Shown in pieces: positions 5,324-27,913 of a DNA stretch of 64,000 nucleotides (position 1 is its first letter; the number at the start of each line of letters is the position of its first letter). Position numbers and translations under genes: made by a program. Source of the stretch: Mesorhizobium sp. Lineage in GTDB: Bacteria; Pseudomonadota; Alphaproteobacteria; Rhizobiales; Rhizobiaceae. The notes under the pieces are model-generated. The model saw only the letters and a list, made by a program, of their open reading frames with translations. It was not told the origin of the DNA and made no database searches. The stretch covers positions 286 to 64,285 of the forward strand of contig NZ_SUGA01000032.1 of assembly GCF_004963255.1 (NCBI RefSeq). Direction: 5' to 3'.

Positions 5324-5647
5324 TTATCTCTCCTCGGCGCGCGCCGCTTTTTCCAGCGCCGCGAGGTCGGCGTCTTCCAGCGTCAGGAACCCCATGATGT
5401 GCTGCACGACTTCGGCGCGGGCATTGCTCAGCGCGCTGTGCAGCTCGAAGCCGTCGGGCGTCTTCGTTCGGGCCAGCCAGTCGCCGTAGGAGGGGCGGCG
5501 GTAGTAGCCTGTCGTGGCGGTGAGGTCGGCCAGCACAAGCTCGCCATCCTCGCCGGAAAAGACGCGGCGATAGGCCTTGGTCAGCGCCTCGCGCGCGGCG
5601 AGCGGGCCGCCGGCGTCGGAGGGACGGGCGAAGCGTTTGCGGCTCAT
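5324..5647 (-). CDS. Bbp19-like phage protein
   Basis: AYRRVFSGEDGELVLADL...ARAEVVQHIMGFL pattern; coupled to the portal stop, the usual position in BPP-1-like podophages. Confidence 0.65.
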   Translation of the reverse strand: MSRKRFARPSDAGGPLAAREALTKAYRRVFSGEDGELVLADLTATTGYYRRPSYGDWLARTKTPDGFELHSALSNARAEVVQHIMGFLTLEDADLAALEKAARAEER

Positions 5648-7482
5648 GCGGCACCATTGGCGGCGCCGCCCACGGGGCCGCCCTGGGAGTCAGGCACGGC
5701 GCCCTGCCCGCCGGGCATCGCGCCTTGCGTCGCGCCGGCCGAACCGGCAGCGCCGCCGCCTGCCCCGCCTTGGGCGCCCTGCATCATCGCCTGAAGGCTG
5801 TCGAGCAGGCCGCTGTCTCGCGCCTGCACGGCGGCCGGCACCGCGTCCTTGGCCACCTTGCCGGCGGTGGCGATCGCCGCCATGCCGGCCTGCGCCTGCT
5901 GTGCCTGGGCGCGCGCGCCGCGCATCCCTTCCACCTCGTCCTTGCGCCGGAAAATGCGCTGCGGGCTGCGGCCGGCGCTCTGCACGACGCGGATCGCCTC
6001 GTCGCCGTCGATATTGTCCATGATGCCGGGATCGAACTGCGCCATCTGCATGGCGGTGGTCACCACCTGGATGGTGTCGCGGGCCTCGGCCGAGCGGCGC
6101 AGCACGTCGAGCGGGCCGGTGAAGGTCGGCCGCACCGCCTTGCCGGCGAGGCTTTCCGGCGGGCGGAAGCGGCTGTCCTGGTCGTAGAGGCCTTTGTCCT
6201 CGAGGATCGACAGCTCGCGATCGAGATTGGCGGCAAAGCCGGCCTGGATGATCGAGCCGGAGGGACCGAGCAGCGCGCCCTTCTCCTCCTGGCGGATCAG
6301 CGCCTCGGTCGCGGTCATCTGCGGGTTCTGCACCAGCGTCTGGAAAAGGTTGACGAACATCATGTCGCGGATCTCCTCCGCCCGGCTCGCCGCATAGTCG
6401 AAGGCATAGCTCGGGTTCTGGCCGGTGGCGATCGGCTGGATCAGCGGCCGGCCATTGTCGTCGATCAGGCCAGGATAATTCTCGCCGGGATTGAGCACCG
6501 GCACATAATCGAGCCTGGCCTTGGAGGCCCTCGGCGGATCGGTGATCTGCTGCAGCGCGCGCAAGCCGGAGCGGCGCACGGCGTTCTCCTCGCGCACCGT
6601 GGTCAGCGCCTCGATGGCCGGCGAGATGCCGTAGGCGTCGCCCTCGTAGCGGCGCCAGTTGAAGGTCGAGACCGGGAAGGTGCGGAAGCCGGACTCGCGC
6701 ACGATCTCCTCCTCGTCCTCAATGACGTGGTAAGAGGCGAAGGCCTGGTCGAGATACTGGTAGAAACCGCCCTTGCGGTACATGCGGCGCTCGTCGCGCG
6801 GCTGCACGCATTGGATCAGCGAGATCTTCTCCTCGCATTTGGCCGGGTCGTCGACCAGCGCCTTGATGCGCGCCGGCAGCTTTTCATAGCCGAGCAATTG
6901 CGCCGCCTGGCGCGCCGTGCGCTCGTAGCGGCGGTGGAAAATGTCGACCTGGCCCCAGCGGTTGCGCGACAGATAGCCCTCGACCACGGGGATCGAGGCG
7001 TAGCGGATCAGCGTGCCGCCGAACCCTTCCTCGGCATAGAGATAGGCCGGGCCGTAGCGGACGACGTTGCGCAGACAGGCCTGCGTCGCCGGCACGAAGT
7101 TGGAGTTGGCGGAATAGCGCAGCGCGAACAGGAAATCGCGCAAGGCCTCGGCCCATTCCTTCTCCTCGTCGGTTTCCTCGTCGTTCATCTCGGCCGTGGT
7201 CAGCCCATGCCATTTTTCGGACTGCGGGATGATCAGGCTTTCCAGACCAGCCGCAAGACGGTTGGCGGCGCTGTTGATGGTGTTGGCGTAGACGCGCGAA
7301 CCGCGGCGCTCCTGCCGCTCGGCCTGGCTGTCCGAGCGGCTGGTGCGGCGGCCCGACCAGATGTCGGGCGCATCCGGATCGCAGAACTCCGCCACCGCCT
7401 CCCAGACGGGCTCGTAAGTGGCGCGTTCGGTCTCGAGTTCGGCCTGTCGCGACAGGATATCGCGGGCGCGGGAGTCGGTCAT
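5644..7482 (-). CDS. Phage portal (head-to-tail connector, T7/BPP-1-like)
   Basis: 612 aa intact ORF with W...GYGISPAIEAL, MTATEALIRQEEKGALLGP and FTGPL patterns of head-to-tail connectors; Gly/Ala/Gln-rich tail; host-like GC. Confidence 0.85.
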   Translation of the reverse strand: MTDSRARDILSRQAELETERATYEPVWEAVAEFCDPDAPDIWSGRRTSRSDSQAERQERRGSRVYANTINSAANRLAAGLESLIIPQSEKWHGLTTAEMNDEETDEEKEWAEALRDFLFALRYSANSNFVPATQACLRNVVRYGPAYLYAEEGFGGTLIRYASIPVVEGYLSRNRWGQVDIFHRRYERTARQAAQLLGYEKLPARIKALVDDPAKCEEKISLIQCVQPRDERRMYRKGGFYQYLDQAFASYHVIEDEEEIVRESGFRTFPVSTFNWRRYEGDAYGISPAIEALTTVREENAVRRSGLRALQQITDPPRASKARLDYVPVLNPGENYPGLIDDNGRPLIQPIATGQNPSYAFDYAASRAEEIRDMMFVNLFQTLVQNPQMTATEALIRQEEKGALLGPSGSIIQAGFAANLDRELSILEDKGLYDQDSRFRPPESLAGKAVRPTFTGPLDVLRRSAEARDTIQVVTTAMQMAQFDPGIMDNIDGDEAIRVVQSAGRSPQRIFRRKDEVEGMRGARAQAQQAQAGMAAIATAGKVAKDAVPAAVQARDSGLLDSLQAMMQGAQGGAGGGAAGSAGATQGAMPGGQGAVPDSQGGPVGGAANGAA

Positions 7483-7655
7483 GTTGTGCCTTTCACGAGG
7501 GCCATGGGACACTGGTGGATGCATATCGGTCGCGTGCACCGCAAAAGGTTCTTGTGCGACGCAACAATCAATGCGTAGATGGGTTTGGGTAACGGCGGTG
7601 GGGTCACGATGGCCGGAGAGCGGATCTGAGACCCGAGACGACCCACTTCGACGCC

Positions 7656-8723
7656 TTGCACGGTTTGCGAGGCATCGCTGCCGTTCTGGTGATGCTTGGT
7701 CACTTCCGTGAGCTTACGGCGCCGCATCTTGATTTGGCGCCGTCAGGCTTTCTCGCCGTCGATCTGTTCTTTCTGCTGAGCGGCTTCGTGATCGCCCACG
7801 CCTATGACGAGAAGTTCCGAAAAGGCATGTCTTTCCGGGAATTCGCGGAGGCCCGCATCGTCAGGCTCTACCCGTTATATTTCGCCGGCATCGGCATTGC
7901 CGTGGCCTGCGTGGGAGCGACCATCGCGATGCACGGGCTAAGCTCGTATTCGCGGCTGGATTTGCTTGCGAGCCTTGCGTTTTCCCTGCTTTTCCTGCCG
8001 ACGCCGCCGTCGCTTTCAGTCGGTCCAGATTTGCTTTTTCCGCTGAACGGTCCGGCATGGTCGCTTTTCTATGAACTTGTCGCCAACGCGGTTTTCGCCG
8101 CGCTGGCCCTGAGGCTCGCTCGCCGCTCGCTGGCCGCTATCTTCAGCCTTGCTTTCCTGGCGCTGGCGCTGATGGCGTGGGACGGCGTCAGCCTGGGCGG
8201 CGGCGCCCATTGGGACGGCACGATCGCGGCCCCCGCCCGGATCGCCTTTTCCTTCTTCCTCGGGGTTTACCTGCGGCGATATGCGACCGGAGACAGCCGG
8301 GATGGCAATCTTTACATGCCCATCCTGCTGGCGCTTTGCGCGGGACTGATGATCTTCCGGCCCGCCGAAAATGCGCAATTGTACGATCTGGCGATTATAG
8401 TGCTGGTCTGGCCCTGGCTTGTTCTCATGGCTTCCCGCTTGCGGCTCTCGGGCTTCTGGCGTGCGATCGCCCTGTTCTCCGGCAATATCTCCTACGCCAT
8501 CTATGCGCTTCACACGCCGCTGATCAGGATCGTGAACATCCTCGACGAATCCGTCACCGGAACCTTGCGGAACCAGCACGGCCTGCCATTCGTCGTGGGA
8601 ACATCCATTCTCGTCATCGCGGTTGCCGCGTTCGCGCACTACGTCTACGACAAGAATGTGCGGACGCTGCTGCGGCATCTGCTTTCGCTGCGGCGCGCAC
8701 GCGAGGAAGTGACGCAGTTTTAG
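7656..8723 (+). CDS. Acyltransferase-3 (OafA-like) membrane protein
   Basis: LHGLRGIAA, GFLAVDLFFLLSGFVI, WSLFYE and GNISYAIYALH motifs. Start uncertain: no in-frame ATG; CTG at 7626, TTG at 7656, or a frameshift from ATG 7609. Confidence 0.85.
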   Translation: MHGLRGIAAVLVMLGHFRELTAPHLDLAPSGFLAVDLFFLLSGFVIAHAYDEKFRKGMSFREFAEARIVRLYPLYFAGIGIAVACVGATIAMHGLSSYSRLDLLASLAFSLLFLPTPPSLSVGPDLLFPLNGPAWSLFYELVANAVFAALALRLARRSLAAIFSLAFLALALMAWDGVSLGGGAHWDGTIAAPARIAFSFFLGVYLRRYATGDSRDGNLYMPILLALCAGLMIFRPAENAQLYDLAIIVLVWPWLVLMASRLRLSGFWRAIALFSGNISYAIYALHTPLIRIVNILDESVTGTLRNQHGLPFVVGTSILVIAVAAFAHYVYDKNVRTLLRHLLSLRRAREEVTQF

Positions 8724-19562: not shown

Positions 19563-19999
19563 CTCACCTGAAAGCTCCCAGCGGATCGCTCTGCCCACCT
19601 GGCGCCGCGCCGCCTTGAACTCCGCCGGATCGACGATCGCCTCGCGCAGCATCATCACGCCGTAGCGCGTCGCGGCCATGAGATCGTCGCGCAGCTTCAC
19701 CACCTGGCCGTTCTTGCGATGGTAGAGGCGGAATTCCTCGAACCAGGCGGCTAAGGTCGAAAACACCTTGAAGCGGCCGGACTGCATGCGGTCGAGCATG
19801 TCCATTAGGCCGGCCTCGACCGAGACGGAGCCGTCGGCGAAACGGGCGTGGCCGGTCAGCATGTTCAGCCCAGGCGCGGCATATTGCTTCGCCAGCGCCA
19901 CGCCGGCGCCTTCCAGCGTCTCGCGCCGGCCGTCGCGCGGCCAGGCGAAGGGCAGCCATTCGCCCCAAGCCTTCAGCGCCACCGCCTGCATAGCGGGCG
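19563..19999 (-). pseudogene. Duplicated 3' fragment of terL with a 1-nt deletion
   Basis: Near-identical direct repeat of 22735-23172 (437 vs 438 bp); no 5' half. Confidence 0.9.
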
Positions 20000-20395
20000 A
20001 CCAATGGTCGAAACAGACAGTCGATCTCCGCCCGATCTCCGGGGCGCAGATTAGCGGCAATGTTGGAGAGGTCCCGCCGGCGTGGCGGGGACGACGCGAA
20101 TGGGCATTCAGAGATATTCAGAATCGCACGGATGTCGAGTCGACGAAGCCGACGATGATGGCACTCAGACTAGTTGGACGGCCCACGGTTGGTGTCGATT
20201 GAAGCTGCAAGGCGGCACGACCTGCAAGGGCCAATCGACGAACAATCGTGTTGCTTGATGCACACCCATACGTCGGCGTCACCATCAGCGTGTGGCAGTA
20301 ACTCAGGCGGATAGGTGATAACTTTCCCCTGGGGAAGACTCATGGTGTCTGCTCCGGTATAGTTCGTATCCCGAATCACCCAAGGAGCTGCCGCT

Positions 20396-20629
20396 ATGGC
20401 ACGGGTTCAATACTTTGTTGTCCTCCACGAAAATGAATGGAAGGTTACTTTGGACGGGAAGCACTATGGCCCGTACGCCACCCAAGCACTCGCGATAAAA
20501 GCAGCCGTCGATGCGGCTCATAGCACTGGAAAGAAGGGCACCGACGCCCAAGTTCTTGTGCAAGGAACGAACAATCAGTTCCGGACTGAGTGGACATATG
20601 GCAATGATCCCTATCCGCCGAAGGGATAG
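20396..20629 (+). CDS. DUF2188 family protein
   Basis: YFVVLHENEWKV...YATQALAIKAAVDAA...RTEWTYGNDPYPPKG pattern; GGAG RBS. Confidence 0.75.
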   Translation: MARVQYFVVLHENEWKVTLDGKHYGPYATQALAIKAAVDAAHSTGKKGTDAQVLVQGTNNQFRTEWTYGNDPYPPKG

Positions 20630-20966
20630 GTTTGGACTGTTTGCCTTCCAAGGCGGCCCAGAAAGCCGCCTTTTTTCGTTTGCCGAAGATCGCGTAGATT
20701 GGGCAGATAGCCACCTGCTGAGCAGCAACTCTCAGTCTGTCATATTGGTTTGCCGCATCACACTTGCGAAGTGAGCGCCAAGAGCCCCGGCGACCAGTGG
20801 CCGGCCTGCGGTCGCCAAGGTGCAGATTGGCGGTGATGTAGGAGAGATTCAATAGGATGCCGGAACAATGGATTTGGCATCACGCACCCATTGTCGAAAA
20901 CCGACACTTTCTGGTTTGGCCACCAACAGCGAGGATCGGCTAGAAACAATCTCAAGAAGCAGACTT

Positions 20967-21713
20967 TTATCTAGCCTTTTCAAACTCCACAAAGGGTTGA
21001 TGGACTTCTGATTGCATAACCTGAAAACCGCTAGGAACCACCGATTCAAATCGGCACAGCAGCCGAAGCTGAATTGGTGCGTCTTGATTGGTTCGAACCA
21101 CCTTGATCCTCGCACTGGCGCAAGACTTCTTGTCGATGAGAAGACGCTTAATGTCCTCGGCATAAAACGTTGGGATGTACCCGACCAAGATCGTGTCATC
21201 TTCGCCACGAAGGGCCACAGCACAAGGGTCCACAGGGTTTTGGACATCCAGCAGAGGCAACAACCTTCCGCCAATCTCCAACTTCTTTGACCAATCCAAG
21301 ACGTCTTTGTGCATATGTCGCATGGCATGGACAAAGAATTCGAGTTCATAGCGGCCGTCCGCGACGGCCGGTTCGGGGTACATCAAAATTGAATCTGTTC
21401 CTGGAATTAATCCAAATTTCGACAACAGCTCGAATTCGTTCCCCATTTCGCGAACGTTGAGCCAATGCGCCATCTTTTCAAAATCCCCCCTGCTCCGAGA
21501 AGGGATTCTGTTTGTAAACAGAGGAATTAATTCTTCAAACCGATATTGAAATTTTGGATCCATACGGAAAAGATCAAAAGGAATTGTTCTTAGATATTTT
21601 ACGCCCTTCGTAAAAACAAAGTAGTATGCGTCTTTCTCTTTAGTCAACCGCCCAATTGTATGCCATTTGCGAGTAGCGTCATCCTGCCACGCCACGAAAA
21701 TACGATTAGACAT
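20967..21713 (-). CDS. HIRAN-domain protein, partner of the HipA-like kinase
   Basis: N-terminal IFVAWQD...WHTIGRL...LFTNRIPSRSR; C-terminal NPVDPCAVAL...VGYIP HIRAN-like motif; overlaps the kinase stop; low GC. Confidence 0.75.
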   Translation of the reverse strand: MSNRIFVAWQDDATRKWHTIGRLTKEKDAYYFVFTKGVKYLRTIPFDLFRMDPKFQYRFEELIPLFTNRIPSRSRGDFEKMAHWLNVREMGNEFELLSKFGLIPGTDSILMYPEPAVADGRYELEFFVHAMRHMHKDVLDWSKKLEIGGRLLPLLDVQNPVDPCAVALRGEDDTILVGYIPTFYAEDIKRLLIDKKSCASARIKVVRTNQDAPIQLRLLCRFESVVPSGFQVMQSEVHQPFVEFEKAR

Positions 21714-22635
21714 TTGTGGCTCCCAAAATCATTGCCTGATTGGCACACAACATACGAATCGCGAAACGGGCTGCCCCTTCGTCAATCCATTCTTCGCCAA
21801 TCTGTCCAAAGACCTTGCTGAACGCCTCCTCAGAAAGCTCGCCGATGCGGGTCGCCCAAAACTGAGTAGCCTCGGGGTACACTTTGACCAATTCGTCGAC
21901 CAACTCACAGAGGTGCAGGGTGCCAGGCGTATTGCTACCGAAGAAGGCGGACTTACCGCGCTCCGCATAAGCCTCAACCGTCGCACGGTGATCTTTGGTA
22001 GTAAGTCTCATTGACCGCTTCTCAGCAGGCTCATTTCTACCGAGGGACGACGCATGATCAAAACTCGGCGCTAGATGAACGGAAATATTTTCCTTTTCGA
22101 CATTTACAACTACGCCCCAGTTCTCATGATGTCTGTCGGTGTTTCCGATCAATGCATCAAATAAAAGGTAGCCTACAAATACCTCCGTGGCCGACAAATT
22201 CTTGAGTTCCTCTTCCCATCCCACCGGCTTTCGAAGTCCTCGAAGCCGTTTTATCAGGTTCAGCACATGGCCGATCTTGTAGTCGATCTGTTGAAACCTT
22301 TTGTTCCCATCGTAACCGTCTACTACTCGCGCAAGCAGCATGTTACCCGGAATGAACTGTGCCGCATCTGGCATGAAACGCTCAGACACAACTCCTTTTA
22401 CGTCACCGATACGAGCGAAATCATACGAAGCGCATGGAATGCCCAGCAGCTTGCAAAGCTCAAAGGACACTTTTTCCGCCCAATTTTCTCCAGTATTGGG
22501 CCGACCTATCTTAAAGAGGTGCGGCCGCCGAACCAACTCGTGGCCCTCGCTGGGAAGCACCCAAGTCTTCTCTTTTGTGCCGAGACTCTCCGGACGCTGA
22601 GAAACGAAGTCGCTGATGTTGTAGACTGGAAACAC
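21706..22635 (-). CDS. HipA-like (CtkA-type) Ser/Thr kinase
   Basis: SLGTKEK, LFK...GENWAEKV, DALIGNTDRHHENWG and LAPSFDHASSL motifs; low GC. Confidence 0.85.
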   Translation of the reverse strand: MFPVYNISDFVSQRPESLGTKEKTWVLPSEGHELVRRPHLFKIGRPNTGENWAEKVSFELCKLLGIPCASYDFARIGDVKGVVSERFMPDAAQFIPGNMLLARVVDGYDGNKRFQQIDYKIGHVLNLIKRLRGLRKPVGWEEELKNLSATEVFVGYLLFDALIGNTDRHHENWGVVVNVEKENISVHLAPSFDHASSLGRNEPAEKRSMRLTTKDHRATVEAYAERGKSAFFGSNTPGTLHLCELVDELVKVYPEATQFWATRIGELSEEAFSKVFGQIGEEWIDEGAARFAIRMLCANQAMILGATNV

Positions 22636-22735
22636 GCGCTAAGCGCCCTAACCTACAGAACAATACGCTGAATCGGCCACCTTGTGTCAACGGTGCATTT
22701 AATGACTGCTGCCATCCTAGTGACGCAGAGTTCGC

Positions 22736-23491
22736 TCACCTGAAAGCTCCCAGCGGGTCGCTTTGCCCCGCCGGACGCCGCGCCGCCTTGAACTCCGCCG
22801 GATCGACCACCGCATCCCTCAGCATCATCACGCCGTAGCGCGTGGCGGCCATCAAATCGTCGCGCAGCTTCACCACCTGGCCGTTCTTGCGATGGTAGAG
22901 GCGGAATTCCTCGAACCAGGCGGCCAAGGTCGAAAACGCCTTGAAGCGGCCGGACTGCATGCGGTCGAGCATGTCCATCAGGCCGGCCTCGACCGAGACG
23001 GAGCCGTCGGCGAAACGGGCGTGGCCGGTCAGCATGTTCAGCCCATGCGCGGCATATTGCTTCGCCAGCGCCACGCCGGCGCCTTCCAGCGTCTCGCGGC
23101 GGCCGTCGCGCGGCCAGGCGAAGGGCAGCCATTCGCCCCAGGCCTTCAGCGCCAGCGCCTGCATGGCGGGCGTCTGCTGGGAGGCGCGGTGCGCCTTGGT
23201 CACATAGACGACATCGGCCTCGGTATCCCAGGCAAGCTCGACCGCGGCGGAAGGATGGTCCCAGCCGAAATCGAGCGCGCCGACCCGCGGCCACCAGCGC
23301 GGCAATTTGAACGGCTCGCAGGCGATCAACTCCTCCGCCACCGGGAAAATGCGGCCCGAGCCCAGCACCGGAATGCCTTTCGCGCGGGCCTCGCGTTCAT
23401 GCTCGGGATAGGCGGCGATGATTTCGGCGCGCTGCTCAGGCGAATAATGCCCGGCATCGTCGATGGTCATGAAGGTGACGTGGCGGGACAT
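22736..23491 (-). CDS. terL: Terminase large subunit, C-terminal nuclease half
   Basis: GALDFGWDHPSA and DDLMAATRY nuclease-domain motifs; own GGAG RBS before MSRHVTF. Confidence 0.85.
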   Translation of the reverse strand: MSRHVTFMTIDDAGHYSPEQRAEIIAAYPEHEREARAKGIPVLGSGRIFPVAEELIACEPFKLPRWWPRVGALDFGWDHPSAAVELAWDTEADVVYVTKAHRASQQTPAMQALALKAWGEWLPFAWPRDGRRETLEGAGVALAKQYAAHGLNMLTGHARFADGSVSVEAGLMDMLDRMQSGRFKAFSTLAAWFEEFRLYHRKNGQVVKLRDDLMAATRYGVMMLRDAVVDPAEFKAARRPAGQSDPLGAFR

Positions 23492-23502
23492 GGCAACTCC
23501 AG

Positions 23503-23670
23503 TTCCTCGCCCCGCGAGAGCGGGGAGAGGTGGCGCGGCGAAGCCGCGACGGAGAGGGGATGGCGCCGGCTTTGACCAGGGACGGGAGGCCATTCGCCAA
23601 GCGCTCTACGAAGGCCCCTTTCCGGCCGCTGCGCGGCCACCTCTCCCCCCGCTTCGCGCGGGGCGAGGAA
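23503..23670. repeat. REP/RIME-like palindromic repeat inside split terL
   Basis: ttcctcgcccc...ggggcgaggaa outer arms with ggggagaggtggcgcggcgaagccgcgacggag internal arm. Confidence 0.75.
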
Positions 23671-23674
23671 AAGG

Positions 23675-24028
23675 TCAGCCCTTGTACCCTTCGTTGACGC
23701 AGTCGTTCTTCCAGGCCCAGTCGAAGTCGGCCTGCGACATGGGCGAGCCGAGGCCCGGTTCGACATAGGGCCCGGCGCCGTCGATGTAGACGATGAAGCG
23801 CGTTTGCTTGGTGAAGATGCCGACCTTGCTTATGACGACGCCGCAGGTCTGTCCGGTCGCGCTGTCGCCGGTGAGATCGACATGGGAGAAGGTTGCCTCC
23901 GGATTATTGACCAGGCCACGCATCCTGGCTTCCGCCGAAGCGATCGCATCGGCGCGCCAGTCGCCGCTGGAGCCGGAGCAGGCCGAGAGCAGCGCGCAGA
24001 GAAAAAGCAGTTCTGGCAGGGGTCGCAT
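23675..24028 (-). CDS. Lipoprotein inserted between the terL halves
   Basis: MRPLPELLFLCALLSAC lipobox; 117 aa; bracketed by two related palindromic repeats. Confidence 0.75.
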   Translation of the reverse strand: MRPLPELLFLCALLSACSGSSGDWRADAIASAEARMRGLVNNPEATFSHVDLTGDSATGQTCGVVISKVGIFTKQTRFIVYIDGAGPYVEPGLGSPMSQADFDWAWKNDCVNEGYKG

Positions 24029-24120
24029 GTCGGCTCCGGATCGGCCGGAAGCTACTCGACCTCCGGTTGCGGCCAAAGCGGCATCGCAAATCATGGTTTC
24101 GGTGTGGTTTCGTGAAGCGC

Positions 24121-24290
24121 TCTTTCCTCGGCCCACGCAAGTGGGGAGAGGTGGCGCGGCGAAGCCGCGACGGAGCGGGGGCAGCGCCGGCTTTTGATGC
24201 AAGAGCGGAAAGCTGCTCGTTAAGCTTGTCGCTCTAGGACATCCCCCTCTCCGGCCGCTGCGCGACCACCCCACCTTGCGGGGGCGAAGA
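24121..24290. repeat. REP/RIME-like palindromic repeat providing the terL-N stop codon
   Basis: Same arm sequence as 23503-23670; the TerL-N ORF ends inside it at 24234. Confidence 0.75.
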
Positions 24291-24968
24291 ACCCAAGTTC
24301 TGAACCGCTTCAGCCGACAAAAACCTCAGCACCACATCGCTCATGCCGAGCAGCGGCGTGAAGGTCACGATGGTTATGCCGTCGGTGGCATTGGTGCGGG
24401 TCAGCCCCTCGGAATAAATGTCCAGCGGCGGCTCCTCGTCGAACCACACGCCGTGCAGCGTCTCGCCCTGCCATTTCTCGCGGCCCTTTTCGTAGCTCTT
24501 GAAGGAGAGCACGCTTTCACCGGCCTGGACGTCGCCACCGCCGCCCCAGCGCACGATGACGCTGTCCAACGCTCCGGGCGTACCGCGGCCCATCACCGTG
24601 CCGGCGATGGCATTGGCCGGGATCATGCCGGTGCCCCATTCGTCCTGCTGCTGCGGCGGGCCGACCAGCACGCGCTGCGGATTGTCGCGCGTGCCTTCGC
24701 CGGTGACGCCGGCGGCCCAGAGCCTGACGGGCTGATCGAACACCTTGCCCGCCCACCAGTCGGGATAGCGGCCGGTGAGGTGCATGGCCCATTCCGCGCC
24801 CCCTGCCCTGGTCTTGCCGAGCTGGTTGCCGGCCATGAACAGGCGCTCGCGGTGGGTCGCGCCCGCCGTGTGAAAGGCGGCCTGCCTTTCGTATGGCGCG
24901 TAGGCGGCGAGAAGATTACGGCGCCGCCTTCGGTCCAATTCCTCGAGCAGCGCCAGATAGGTCTGCAT
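24234..24968 (-). CDS. terL: Terminase large subunit, N-terminal ATPase half
   Basis: Walker A FMAGNQLGKT, Walker B WFDEEPP and TFTPLLG coupling motif. Confidence 0.9.
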   Translation of the reverse strand: MQTYLALLEELDRRRRRNLLAAYAPYERQAAFHTAGATHRERLFMAGNQLGKTRAGGAEWAMHLTGRYPDWWAGKVFDQPVRLWAAGVTGEGTRDNPQRVLVGPPQQQDEWGTGMIPANAIAGTVMGRGTPGALDSVIVRWGGGGDVQAGESVLSFKSYEKGREKWQGETLHGVWFDEEPPLDIYSEGLTRTNATDGITIVTFTPLLGMSDVVLRFLSAEAVQNLGSSPPQGGVVAQRPERGMS

Positions 24969-25329
24969 CGCCGTCGAGGAGCGGCCGAAGGCTCGCCTCG
25001 AGACCACGGATGCGGCTTCGGATCTCCTCATCGCTCAGTTGCTCGAGAGTGGTTTTATCGGCATCGAAACTTTCCGAGCTGGCCGCAAAATCCTTGGGCA
25101 GCAGCGTCAGCACGACCTTGAGATACTGGTCGGGCTTTTCGGCCCTGACCGCCGCGATGACGCCGGCGCCATGAGCGCTGAAATCGGCGCGAAGGGCGGC
25201 GGCGAAGTCATCGACGAGCGTCTTTCGCGGTCGTTTGCGGCAGGCGGCGGCTTGAACCGGTGCGGACCTCGCTCGCTTCGCGCCGGCGGGCTTGCGGCTC
25301 GCGGCCTTGTCGGCGTCAGGCCTGGGCAT
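24916..25329 (-). CDS. Terminase small subunit-like protein
   Basis: ADFSAHGAGVIAAVRAEKPDQYLKVVLTLLPKD and LEQLSDEEIR patterns; overlaps the terL start. Confidence 0.6.
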   Translation of the reverse strand: MPRPDADKAASRKPAGAKRARSAPVQAAACRKRPRKTLVDDFAAALRADFSAHGAGVIAAVRAEKPDQYLKVVLTLLPKDFAASSESFDADKTTLEQLSDEEIRSRIRGLEASLRPLLDGDADLSGAARGIGPKAAP

Positions 25330-25672
25330 CGGACGGTGTCGCTTTCGCTTGTCTTGCCTTGCGCGGCTTGCGCGCCGGCTTCTTGCGCGGCCTGGCGCGC
25401 CTCGGAGGCTCGCCATCGACGGCCGGCGCGGCAATCGCCTTCAGCTTCGCTGTCGCGGCACGGACCACCGAGGCATCGAGGCCCCAGCGCGGGAAGCCGA
25501 AACCGGCGACCGCGTCGACCGGTCCGCCGCGCACCATGCCGATGCGCACGCCGGGCGGAACCTGCTCGACGCGCCCAGTGCGGCGTGGCGGGTCCGCGCC
25601 TTCGAACGCGCCGATGGCGCTGACGATCTCGGCGCCGTCATCGGCGGTGATGATGGTGGCATAGCGTGGCAT
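25316..25672 (-). CDS. Hypothetical protein, first gene of the terminase operon
   Basis: GAGG RBS, MPRYATIITADDG..., basic tail; overlaps the TerS-like start. Confidence 0.55.
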   Translation of the reverse strand: MPRYATIITADDGAEIVSAIGAFEGADPPRRTGRVEQVPPGVRIGMVRGGPVDAVAGFGFPRWGLDASVVRAATAKLKAIAAPAVDGEPPRRARPRKKPARKPRKARQAKATPSDAQA

Positions 25673-27607: not shown

Positions 27608-27913
27608 ATGAACGTCGCCAATCTCCAACTCGAAGGCCTGCTGATGGCCGTCGCAGCGATCAACCACGTGCTGGTCAAGAAAGGTGTGCTCACCGTCGAG
27701 GAAATCGACATCGCGCTGCGCAAGGCCGAGGCCGGTGAGACCGGCGAGGAGCGCTCGGAGGCGATCTCGGCCTCGAACCGCGACGCCATCAATTTCCCGA
27801 TCCGGCTGCTCGAGCTCGCCAACCAGTGCCAGCCCGAAGCGGAGATGCCGTCCTTCTCGAAGCTGGCGCGCATGGTCGGGCAGATGAAGGAGCCGTATAA
27901 CGACCAGATGTGA
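27608..27913 (+). CDS. Hypothetical protein (101 aa)
   Basis: GAGAGGA RBS; MNVANLQLEGLLMAVAAIN...; GGATC-N16-CGTT upstream. Confidence 0.7.
   Translation: MNVANLQLEGLLMAVAAINHVLVKKGVLTVEEIDIALRKAEAGETGEERSEAISASNRDAINFPIRLLELANQCQPEAEMPSFSKLARMVGQMKEPYNDQM

What the first reader, a model, noticed from the sequence alone, without database searches (positions are those of the whole stretch)
22736..24968. Terminase split at the ATPase-nuclease linker with both halves still open
Seen: TerL-N ends ...AVQNLG, reads into a repeat and stops; TerL-C begins GTGVAMSRHVTF with a GGAG RBS. Removing ~790 bp rejoins a plausible linker. Neither half has internal stops or damaged motifs. Inference: either a recent knockout or a functional two-chain terminase.
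Basis: partly seen in the sequence, partly recalled or inferred. Interest (0 to 1): 0.65.

Follow-up and report, generated by a model that had tools for sequence, protein, structure and literature searches.

The report
Naturally two-gene phage terminase, later invaded
The DNA-packaging enzyme gene here was not broken by the 790-bp insert: in this whole group of Mesorhizobium phages and prophage relics it is normally two adjoining genes, both kept by selection, and host repeats plus a small lipoprotein gene later settled in the gap.

Summary
On the minus strand, terL-N (24968..24234) and terL-C (23491..22736) are both intact. Between them lie 788 bp (23503-24290): two copies of a genome-wide palindromic repeat around a 117-aa lipoprotein gene.

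The insert did not cause the split. All 68 Mesorhizobium/Rhizobiales species loci examined have the same break. It is also seen in 109 of the 120 closest C-half homologues and in three metagenomic phage-like contigs. In the least-altered copies the two genes overlap by ATGA or GTGA, the usual sign of translational coupling. Relatives below about 74% identity (Bradyrhizobium prophages, Rhizobium phages, P22 gp2) are single-chain.

The break is not exactly at the ATPase-nuclease boundary. It lies about 42 residues upstream, after ATPase motif III, so the C chain carries a predicted strand, two lid helices and the nuclease.

Both halves are under purifying selection (dN/dS about 0.1-0.15). This holds among the four species that share the lipoprotein insert.

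This genome's copy sits at a fixed chromosomal site in a degraded prophage without capsid or tail genes. A "recent knockout" is refuted. A two-chain terminase is well supported by evolution but has not been tested biochemically. No expression data could be obtained.

The parts
24916..25434 (-). terS-like small terminase gene (172 aa), overlapping the start of terL-N
   Evidence: ORF. It has no Pfam, PHROG or NCBIfam hit of its own. The positional homologues in phage contigs carry Sf6_terminase or DUF5681. It is conserved upstream of terL-N in all loci. dN/dS is 0.22-0.58.
24234..24968 (-). terL-N: the RecA-like ATPase core of the large terminase, with Walker A, Walker B and motif III. The native part ends at about 24288 (...AVQNLG). 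The last 18 codons (24285-24237, stop at 24234) are read from repeat copy B.
   Evidence: Pfam Terminase_6N positions 1-152 of 215. Matches phrog_31467 and phrog_2. Orthologue alignment. dN/dS median 0.147.
24124..24290 (.). Repeat copy B: a dispersed palindromic (REP/MITE-like) element
   Evidence: It belongs to the genome-wide family that gives 76 matches.
23675..24028 (-). 117-aa lipoprotein gene (MRPLPELLFLCALLSAC..., lipobox LSAC), a cargo gene sitting in the terL junction
   Evidence: ORF. It is found in only four genomes (G000, G018, G023, G034), always in this junction, at 87-90% identity. dN/dS is 0.14-0.28. No family hit.
23503..23670 (.). Repeat copy A: the same palindromic element. 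Its 3' arm ends just upstream of the GGAG and ATG of terL-C.
   Evidence: RNA fold -114.8 kcal/mol, z = -5.26. No Rfam family reached threshold; only a sub-threshold miRNA match that I treat as chance.
22736..23491 (-). terL-C (251 aa): a predicted beta-strand (RHVTFM), two lid/linker helices, and the RNase H-like nuclease domain
   Evidence: Pfam Terminase_6N 162-213 plus Terminase_6C. The P22 gp2 nuclease structure 4DKW aligns from residue 43. 109 of 120 homologues start at this methionine. dN/dS median 0.123.
19590..20003 (-). Second, partial copy of the terL-C 3' end (residues 106-243, 93% identical). It is separated from the intact gene by a low-GC island.
20967..22635 (-). Low-GC island between the two terL-C 3' copies, holding a HipA_C-like kinase gene (21706-22635) and a HIRAN-domain gene (20967-21713)
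   Evidence: Pfam hits. GC content.
5644..7539 (-). Portal gene (T7-type head-to-tail connector) of the same prophage relic
   Evidence: Pfam PF12236, E = 4e-70. dN/dS 0.11-0.19.
27608..27913 (+). Host core gene (101 aa, MNVANLQLEG...) that marks the fixed chromosomal site of the element
   Evidence: It lies next to terS in 19 of the 21 relatives' loci. It is present in 35 of 36 genomes of the genus, including those without terL. Its dS is comparable to that of terL.

Best explanation
This is a P22-type (Pfam Terminase_6) large terminase that is naturally encoded as two genes in a lineage of temperate podovirus-like phages of Mesorhizobium.

Ancestral layout (shown). terL-N ends with a short tail after motif III (...FLSxxEVExMGKG). 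Its TGA stop overlaps the ATG of terL-C (ATGA), which implies translational coupling.

How the enzyme is divided (inferred). TerL-N supplies the RecA-like ATPase core. TerL-C supplies a strand, the lid/linker helices and the nuclease. The two chains would have to associate non-covalently to rebuild the packaging ATPase-nuclease. A single-base indel in the A-rich ATGA region is enough to switch between the fused and split forms.

History of this locus (shown). A prophage of this lineage has been resident at one chromosomal site, next to a host core gene, since early in the radiation of the genus, and it has decayed. The terL-N/terL-C junction became an intergenic landing pad. Host palindromic repeats inserted there, and in the ancestor of four species a lipoprotein gene did too. 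Here that gives the 788-bp insert and replaces the last two residues of TerL-N with an 18-residue repeat-encoded tail.

Current state. Both halves, and the portal, stayed under purifying selection after that insertion (shown). They are therefore probably still expressed and useful, with terL-C translated from its own GGAG-ATG on a read-through transcript (inferred). What they are used for is unknown, because this genome lacks the matching capsid and tail genes.
For: The split is ancestral.
- Among the relatives, the N-half match ends at query residue 246-265 (mostly 248-254) in all ~22 genomes of the genus that carry the gene, and the C half starts at residue 1. The gaps between them range from 12 nt to 3.7 kb.
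- In 68 named Mesorhizobium/Rhizobiales species loci, none is fused. Where both halves were found, the distance from the N stop to the C start runs from -3 (overlap) to more than 2.2 kb.
- A 4-nt overlap is seen in L027/L093 and L096 (ATGA) and in metagenome phage-like contigs L035, L036 and L037 (ATGA) and L038 (GTGA). These contigs have the order terS, terL-N, terL-C, portal.
- 109 of the 120 best C-half homologues begin at M-[ST]-RHVTF, and 9 are fused, at 66-74% identity.
- In the tree, a clade of 119 sequences (SH-aLRT 95) is mostly split.
- The nearest isolated phages and the Bradyrhizobium prophages are fused.

Selection.
- NG86 dN/dS has a median of 0.147 for the N half (22 sequences) and 0.123 for the C half (18 sequences), with no stops.
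- Among the four species that share the insert, dN/dS is 0.07-0.13, and neutrality is rejected at P <= 7e-12.
- The portal has dN/dS 0.11-0.19.

Vertical residence.
- The flanking gene is a genus-wide core gene.
- Its median dS of 0.61 is close to that of terL-N (0.58) and terL-C (0.50), with rank correlations of 0.29 and 0.40.

Position of the break.
- Pfam coordinates and the P22 nuclease structure alignment.
- AlphaFold models: the equivalent site in a fused homologue is a low-confidence loop at residues 229-238.
- In a read-through model of a split pair, the first C-half residues form a strand at 276-281, followed by helices at 291-310.
- The fold matches P22, D6E, T4, Sf6 and P74-26 TerL.

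No splicing element. No Rfam family reached threshold in the insert; the only listing is a sub-threshold miRNA match taken as chance. The only Pfam domains found are terminase domains, with no intein.
Against: - There is no transcript, protein or biochemical evidence.
- This genome has no detectable capsid or tail genes of the parent phage type, so a packaging role here is unclear.
- Many sister species carry truncated or chimeric C halves, cut at residue 29, 99, 118, 201 or 224, some fused to a GH108 lysozyme. The C half can therefore be lost.
- A very stable repeat hairpin lies directly upstream of the terL-C start. It could block read-through or hide the ribosome-binding site.
- No promoter-like site was found.
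- Low dN/dS could be partly maintained by recombination with incoming related phages. Duplicated 3'-end footprints exist.
- Pairwise dN/dS values and dS correlations are not phylogenetically independent.
- The AlphaFold models have moderate confidence (pLDDT 76-77). Their coordinates could not be inspected, so the pairing partner of the predicted strand is not verified.
Confidence: 0.75

Rival explanations
1. Recent knockout: a single-chain terL was interrupted in this strain, or in its recent ancestors, by insertion of the repeat-lipoprotein cassette. The halves are still open only because too little time has passed.
For: The insert is real and bounded by mobile-looking repeats. The N half now reads into a repeat. 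The surrounding prophage is degraded.
Against: - The same break occurs without any insert, as an ATGA overlap.
- It occurs in all 68 Mesorhizobium/Rhizobiales loci.
- dS between carriers of the insert is 0.26-0.50 with dN/dS about 0.1, which is far too much divergence for open frames to survive by chance.
Confidence: 0.02
2. Ancestrally split but now dead: the two-gene terminase worked in the free phage, while the copy in this genome is a non-functional relic. Its apparent constraint would come from occasional gene conversion by superinfecting relatives rather than from selection in the host.
For: - No capsid or tail genes in the genome.
- Truncated or chimeric C halves in many species.
- Partial duplications of terL pieces that look like recombination footprints.
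- A hairpin in front of terL-C and no promoter-like site.
- Relaxed constraint on terS.
Against: - dN/dS is 0.07-0.13 in both halves among the four species sharing the insert, and about 0.11-0.19 in the portal.
- The dS of terL tracks that of the flanking host gene. This fits vertical descent better than repeated replacement.
- The lipoprotein gene inside the junction has a similar dS, so the block was inherited as a unit.
Confidence: 0.2
3. One polypeptide after all: the halves are joined by programmed -1 frameshifting or bypassing at the overlap, by RNA splicing (an intron), or by protein trans-splicing (a split intein).
For: Known split terL genes in other phages are repaired by group I introns or inteins (PMC12880540). 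In the overlap forms, the C frame is -1 relative to the N frame.
Against: - There is no conserved slippery heptamer at the overlaps. The sequences differ: ggcaaATGA, gcgATGA, gagATGA, gaaATGA, aaaGTGA.
- Spacers of 17 nt to more than 2 kb, with stops in all frames, are tolerated under continued purifying selection.
- No Rfam intron was found.
- There is no room for an intron in the overlap forms.
- There is no intein or Hint domain, and no extra ~100-aa or ~35-aa intein halves at the break.
Confidence: 0.03

Closest known systems
Single-chain P22-type large terminase (P22 gp2; Pfam Terminase_6N + Terminase_6C; nuclease structure PDB 4DKW)
   Same: About 47% identity to P22 gp2 over the ATPase core. 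The nuclease domain aligns to 4DKW at E = 3e-54, and a model of a fused relative matches it with TM 0.89. All ATPase and nuclease motifs are present, and the gene order terS, terL, portal is the same.
   Different: It is encoded as two translationally coupled genes, broken after motif III. The nearest fused relatives are at most about 74% identical.
terL genes interrupted by group I introns or inteins (for example Jug jumbo phages, PMC12880540; Staphylococcus and Bacillus jumbo phages, bioRxiv 10.1101/2020.12.14.422802)
   Same: terL appears as two or more ORFs in the genome.
   Different: Those are repaired into one chain by RNA or protein splicing. Here there is no intron or intein, the unmodified form has a 4-nt ORF overlap, and arbitrary spacers are tolerated.
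Herpesvirus terminase UL15 (two exons around other genes). Cited from my own knowledge and from earlier notes of this scan.
   Same: A terminase ATPase/nuclease gene in two pieces, with unrelated genes between them.
   Different: The UL15 exons are spliced into one mRNA and one protein. Bacterial genes have no such splicing, so two polypeptides are expected here.
Other two-gene terminases noted earlier in this scan: a T7-like domesticated cluster of Candidatus Enterousia around dnaB, and viruses of ammonia-oxidising archaea (e1-700270, e1-2669751, e1-3286506). These are unchecked AI notes.
   Same: Separately encoded, conserved ATPase and nuclease pieces in phage-derived clusters of Alphaproteobacteria. 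Other genes sit in the junction, and there is evidence of purifying selection.
   Different: This is a different terminase family (P22/Terminase_6, not T7 gp19-type) and a different host. Here the free-phage form with overlapping ORFs is also seen. Whether the break point is structurally the same was not tested.
Gene transfer agents (RcGTA-like and others)
   Same: A phage-derived packaging module at a fixed chromosomal site. It appears vertically inherited, and terL and the portal are under purifying selection.
   Different: This genome has no complete head-tail gene set. Many species have truncated terL-C. No particle or transfer evidence exists. It is not related to RcGTA terminase or portal genes: the portal is T7-type PF12236.

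Membership tests
Large terminase, Terminase_6 (T4/P22-type) | N-terminal ASCE ATPase with Walker A, Walker B and the motif III coupling motif | tested here: met
   Pfam Terminase_6N, E = 4e-18. AGNQLGKT, VWFDEE and TFTP are present and conserved.
Large terminase, Terminase_6 (T4/P22-type) | C-terminal RNase H-like nuclease with conserved acidic residues | tested here: met
   Pfam Terminase_6C, E = 5e-15. Alignment to P22 structure 4DKW at E = 3e-54. D74, D129, D211 and D212 are invariant.
Large terminase, Terminase_6 (T4/P22-type) | ATPase and nuclease on one polypeptide | tested here: not met
   There is a stop codon and a frame change between the halves in this window and in all 68 Mesorhizobium/Rhizobiales loci. 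Insert-free copies have the ATGA overlap.
Large terminase, Terminase_6 (T4/P22-type) | ATP-driven DNA packaging and DNA cleavage activity | not testable with these tools
   This needs biochemistry or genetics.
Intron-interrupted terL | A group I or II intron RNA structure between the exons | tested here: not met
   The Rfam E-value scan of 23300-24500 found no intron. Overlap forms leave no intervening sequence.
Intein or split-intein terL | Hint/intein domain, or N- and C-intein halves at the break | tested here: not met
   The only Pfam domains are terminase domains. The N halves end 10-15 residues after motif III, and the C halves start at M-S-RHVTF.
Programmed frameshift fusion | A conserved slippery site at the frame junction | tested here: not met
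   The junction sequences differ between lineages and include spacers of 17 nt to more than 2 kb.
Gene transfer agent or domesticated phage module | Fixed chromosomal locus and vertical inheritance | tested here: met
   The element lies next to a genus-wide core gene in 19 of the 21 relatives' loci. The dS of terL is comparable to, and correlated with, that of the host flank.
Gene transfer agent or domesticated phage module | A complete head (and tail) gene set able to form particles | tested here: not met
   tblastn with ORFs downstream of the portal, taken from an intact prophage copy and from G024, finds no capsid or tail homologues in this genome.
Gene transfer agent or domesticated phage module | Particle production and DNA transfer | not testable with these tools
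   Requires experiments.
REP/MITE-like dispersed palindromic repeat (the flanks of the insert) | Many dispersed copies and a long hairpin | tested here: met
   76 matches in the genome. Hairpin of -115 kcal/mol, z = -5.3.

The most novel reading that the evidence does not exclude
Mesorhizobium keeps a vertically inherited, domesticated phage packaging module (terL-N, terL-C and portal). Its terminase is an obligate two-chain enzyme cut at the hinge between the ATPase core and the lid. Force or signal would then have to cross a non-covalent interface. The module serves a host function, such as a GTA-like or satellite-like packaging role or a defence role, even in genomes that have lost the matching capsid and tail genes.
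Probability: 0.3. Interest if true: 0.75.

Novelty: new variant of a known kind. Interest (0 to 1): 0.55.

Why it matters
Large terminases are the strongest known molecular motors, and every structurally studied one is a single chain. Current models (T4, P74-26, D6E, phi29-like) rely on movement between the ATPase core, the lid or linker, and the nuclease.

A natural lineage in which the chain is cut after motif III, yet conserved across more than 100 protein clusters, would be a ready-made fragment-complementation experiment. It would ask whether covalent continuity at that hinge is needed for mechanochemical coupling.

There are also two practical points.
- Half-size 'terminase family protein' and 'unknown function' calls (for example phrog_31467) in Mesorhizobium and in metagenomes are halves of one enzyme, not pseudogenes. 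Prophage-completeness tools will misjudge them.
- The junction acts as a tolerated landing pad for host repeats and cargo genes.

Tried and rejected
- Group I/II intron in the insert: the Rfam E-value scan gave only a sub-threshold miRNA match on the repeat, which I treat as chance.
- Intein or split intein: no such domain and no extra length at the break.
- Programmed frameshift: no conserved slippery site, and long spacers are tolerated.
- The lipoprotein gene as a multi-copy mobile cassette: it is single-copy, found in only four species, and always in this junction.
- PDB sequence search with the N half: no hit at E <= 0.001.
- NCBIfam: no model hits either half.
- Promoter and terminator scan: nothing above the shuffle expectation.
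- Literature: three full-text searches found only intron- or intein-split terL and no overlapping two-gene TerL. This is absence from an open-access subset, not proof of novelty.
- Mistake corrected: early on I wrongly thought only one locus per call was available in the Python box. The files hold many records.
- AlphaFold model coordinates are not exposed, so I could not check which sheet the predicted RHVTFM strand joins.
Full report
**What is there**

The terminase lies on the minus strand.
- terL-N is ORF 25031..24234, with a likely start at ATG 24968 (MQTYL). It contains Walker A (AGNQLGKT), Walker B (VWFDEE) and motif III (TFTP).
- It ends ...RFLSAEAVQNLG and then reads 18 codons into a repeat before stopping.
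- terL-C is best started at ATG 23491 (MSRHVTF), which has GGAG 5 nt upstream. The longer ORF from 23593 only adds 34 repeat-encoded residues.
- Pfam places Terminase_6N positions 1-152 of 215 in the N half, and Terminase_6N positions 162-213 plus Terminase_6C in the C half.

**The insert**

Between the halves, 23503-24290 holds two copies of a ~170-nt palindrome, 78-87% alike.
- This repeat gives 76 matches across the 6.7-Mb genome.
- It folds into a -115 kcal/mol hairpin, z = -5.3.
- The two copies flank an intact 117-aa lipoprotein gene (24028..23675, lipobox LSAC).

**Is the split caused by the insert? No.**

Genomes of the same genus:
- About 22 of 36 genomes carry the gene.
- In every one, the N-half match stops at query residue 246-265 (mostly 248-254) and the C half starts at residue 1.
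- The distance between the halves ranges from 12 nt to 3.7 kb.

In G033:C7 (L027), terL-N (5796..6539) and terL-C (6536..7291) overlap by ATGA.

A scan of species-representative genomes returned 80 loci.
- 68 are Mesorhizobium or unnamed Rhizobiales, and none is fused.
- Where both halves were found, the N stop lies -3 (ATGA overlap in L093 and L096), 17, 21, 117-760 or more than 2,000 nt from the C start.
- The other 12 loci are single-chain, at 62-70% identity. They come from Bradyrhizobium, Bauldia, a Hyphomicrobiales MAG, an Acidobacteriaceae MAG and Limnoglobus.

Among the 120 best C-half homologues in the 5.8-billion-protein collection, 109 begin exactly at M-[ST]-RHVTF. Nine are fused, at 66-74% identity, with junctions such as RFLSENSQD|RHDTVMTIED.

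Three metagenomic phage-like contigs of 25-50 kb show the order terS, terL-N, terL-C, portal, with a 4-nt ATGA or GTGA overlap.

The nearest isolated phages have a single-chain TerL: Rhizobium phage RHph_N2, Achromobacter phage CF418P1, and P22 at about 47% identity.

A tree of the region after the break gives a clade of 119 sequences (SH-aLRT 95) that is mostly split.
- Three small fused groups sit inside or near its base.
- At least 2, and most parsimoniously 5, changes of state are needed.
- Switching between the states is therefore easy. From the sequence ...ggcaaATGAgc..., a one-base insertion in the A-run would put the two genes in frame and remove the stop (my inference).

**Where is the break in the fold?**

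- The crystallised P22 gp2 nuclease domain (4DKW) aligns from residue 43 of TerL-C. The first 42 residues (MSRHVTFMTIDDAGHYSPEQRAEIIAAYPEHEREARAKGIPV) are therefore not part of the nuclease.
- In an AlphaFold model of a fused relative (P0253, pLDDT 75.6), the equivalent site falls in a low-confidence loop at 229-238. This follows the last core helix and precedes two helices at 249-268 and the nuclease from about residue 275.
- That model matches P22, D6E, T4, Sf6 and P74-26 terminase structures.
- I also modelled a split pair as one chain by reading the TGA stop of locus L046 as tryptophan: N half, 45-residue spacer, C half (pLDDT 77.3). The spacer is disordered. RHVTFM becomes a beta-strand (276-281) and is followed by helices at 291-310.
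- My reading is that the cut separates the RecA-like core from a strand, the lid/linker and the nuclease. Which strand RHVTFM pairs with could not be checked.

So 'ATPase-nuclease linker' is approximately right, but not exactly.

**Selection**

- Pairwise Nei-Gojobori dN/dS has a median of 0.147 for the N half (22 sequences) and 0.123 for the C half (18 sequences). There are no internal stops.
- The lipoprotein gene occurs only in G000, G018, G023 and G034, always in this junction.
- Among those four species, dN/dS is 0.07-0.13 for terL-N, 0.09-0.12 for terL-C and 0.14-0.28 for the lipoprotein gene.
- All three have a similar dS (0.23-0.50). Neutrality is rejected at P <= 7e-12 for both halves.
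- Constraint therefore continued after the insertion.
- The portal has dN/dS 0.11-0.19. terS is more relaxed, at 0.22-0.58.

**History of the locus**

- A 101-aa gene upstream of terS (27608-27913) lies next to the element in 19 of the 21 relatives' loci. The two exceptions are the G033 copies.
- That gene is a genus-wide core gene, present in 35 of 36 genomes, including those without terL.
- Its median dS is 0.61, against 0.58 for terL-N and 0.50 for terL-C, with rank correlations of 0.29 and 0.40.
- This fits one old integration that was then inherited vertically and has decayed to different degrees.
- Several species have C halves cut at residue 29, 99, 118, 201 or 224. Some are fused in frame to a GH108 lysozyme with a peptidoglycan-binding domain.
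- This genome lacks homologues of the capsid and tail ORFs of an intact copy.
- It carries a duplicated terL-C 3' fragment beyond a low-GC island with HipA-like and HIRAN genes.
- The closest relative (L108, 97% identical) has a single repeat and no lipoprotein gene in the junction. The cassette was therefore gained or lost by recombination between repeats.

**Alternatives**

- The Rfam scan lists no family at threshold, only a sub-threshold miRNA match that I treat as chance, so there is no intron. There is no intein domain and no conserved slippery site.
- Long spacers carrying stops are tolerated. The evidence therefore points to two polypeptides.
- The main uncertainty is whether the relic copy in this strain is still used.
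- Against use: a strong hairpin in front of terL-C, no promoter-like site, missing capsid and tail genes, and frequent loss of the C half in sister species.
- For use: the low dN/dS within the clade that carries the insert.

**What is known**

- Full-text searches found split terL only as intron- or intein-interrupted genes that are repaired (PMC12880540).
- PHROGs already holds a 261-position family of 'unknown function' (phrog_31467) that matches the N half, and a nuclease-only 'terminase large subunit' family (phrog_5653) that matches the C half. Stand-alone halves are therefore in databases but not recognised as such.
- NCBI labels the halves 'terminase family protein'.
- Earlier unchecked notes from this scan describe other two-gene terminases, of the T7 type, in gut Alphaproteobacteria and in archaeal viruses.
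- I rate this a new variant of a known kind.

**Verdict**

- The 'knockout' reading is refuted.
- The 'two-chain terminase' reading is well supported by comparative evidence and untested experimentally.
- The copy in this window is a secondary, repeat-invaded relic of that arrangement.

Noticed in passing
Homologues P0194, P0200, P0206, P0210, P0217, P0224, P0236-P0249; G029, G030, G032: In many Mesorhizobium genomes terL-C is cut at about residue 201 and continues in frame into a GH108 lysozyme plus PG_binding_3 domain. Another group is cut at residue 224 and continues into an unrelated stretch of about 245 aa, giving proteins of about 496 aa. These are conserved chimeric ORFs, presumably from deletions inside the relic.
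   Followed up: partly
window 19590-20003 and 20004-22735: A second copy of the terL-C 3' end (93% aa identity to residues 106-243, and diverging near its end) lies beyond a 2.7-kb low-GC island. The island carries a HipA_C-like kinase gene and a HIRAN-domain gene. This looks like the footprint of DNA that recombined into terL-C and brought a replacement 3' end.
   Followed up: partly
L108 (MAG Mesorhizobium sp. N.Ca.ET.125.02.1), junction upstream of position 2501: The closest relative (97% identity in both halves) has a single hybrid repeat and no lipoprotein gene between the halves. Its 5' part matches window copy B and its 3' part matches copy A. Recombination between the two repeats therefore deletes or inserts the cassette.
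   Followed up: partly
L022 (G009) 5403-5641; L023 (G005) 8376-8648; L024 (G001) 7225-7332: Extra partial copies of the terL-N 3' end sit inside the junction in three other species. The junction is therefore a recurrent site of rearrangement.
   Followed up: no
P0225 (473 aa) in the tree: A fused TerL (74% identical) is nested among split sequences. Its junction reads ...DDPGAAY|RHVTSMTIDD. This is a possible secondary re-fusion.
   Followed up: no
phrog_31467: This PHROG is annotated 'unknown function' (261 positions). It matches the terL-N half at E = 6e-44 and is most likely the stand-alone ATPase-core half of split terminases.
   Followed up: no
window 24234-24287: The native C-terminal tail of TerL-N is conserved in other split forms (...EVERMGKG, ...QIKMLGKK, ...QVEQMVKGK). 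Here, and in G018, it is replaced by ...AVQNLG plus 18 repeat-encoded residues. If the tail helps the two chains dock, this copy may be impaired.
   Followed up: no
G020:C10:104953-105114 and G008:C1:216186-216326, next to the host core gene: Tiny terL-N remnants (43-65% identity over about 50 residues) lie beside the same host gene in two species that otherwise lack the element. This fits an old insertion that has almost been erased there.
   Followed up: no
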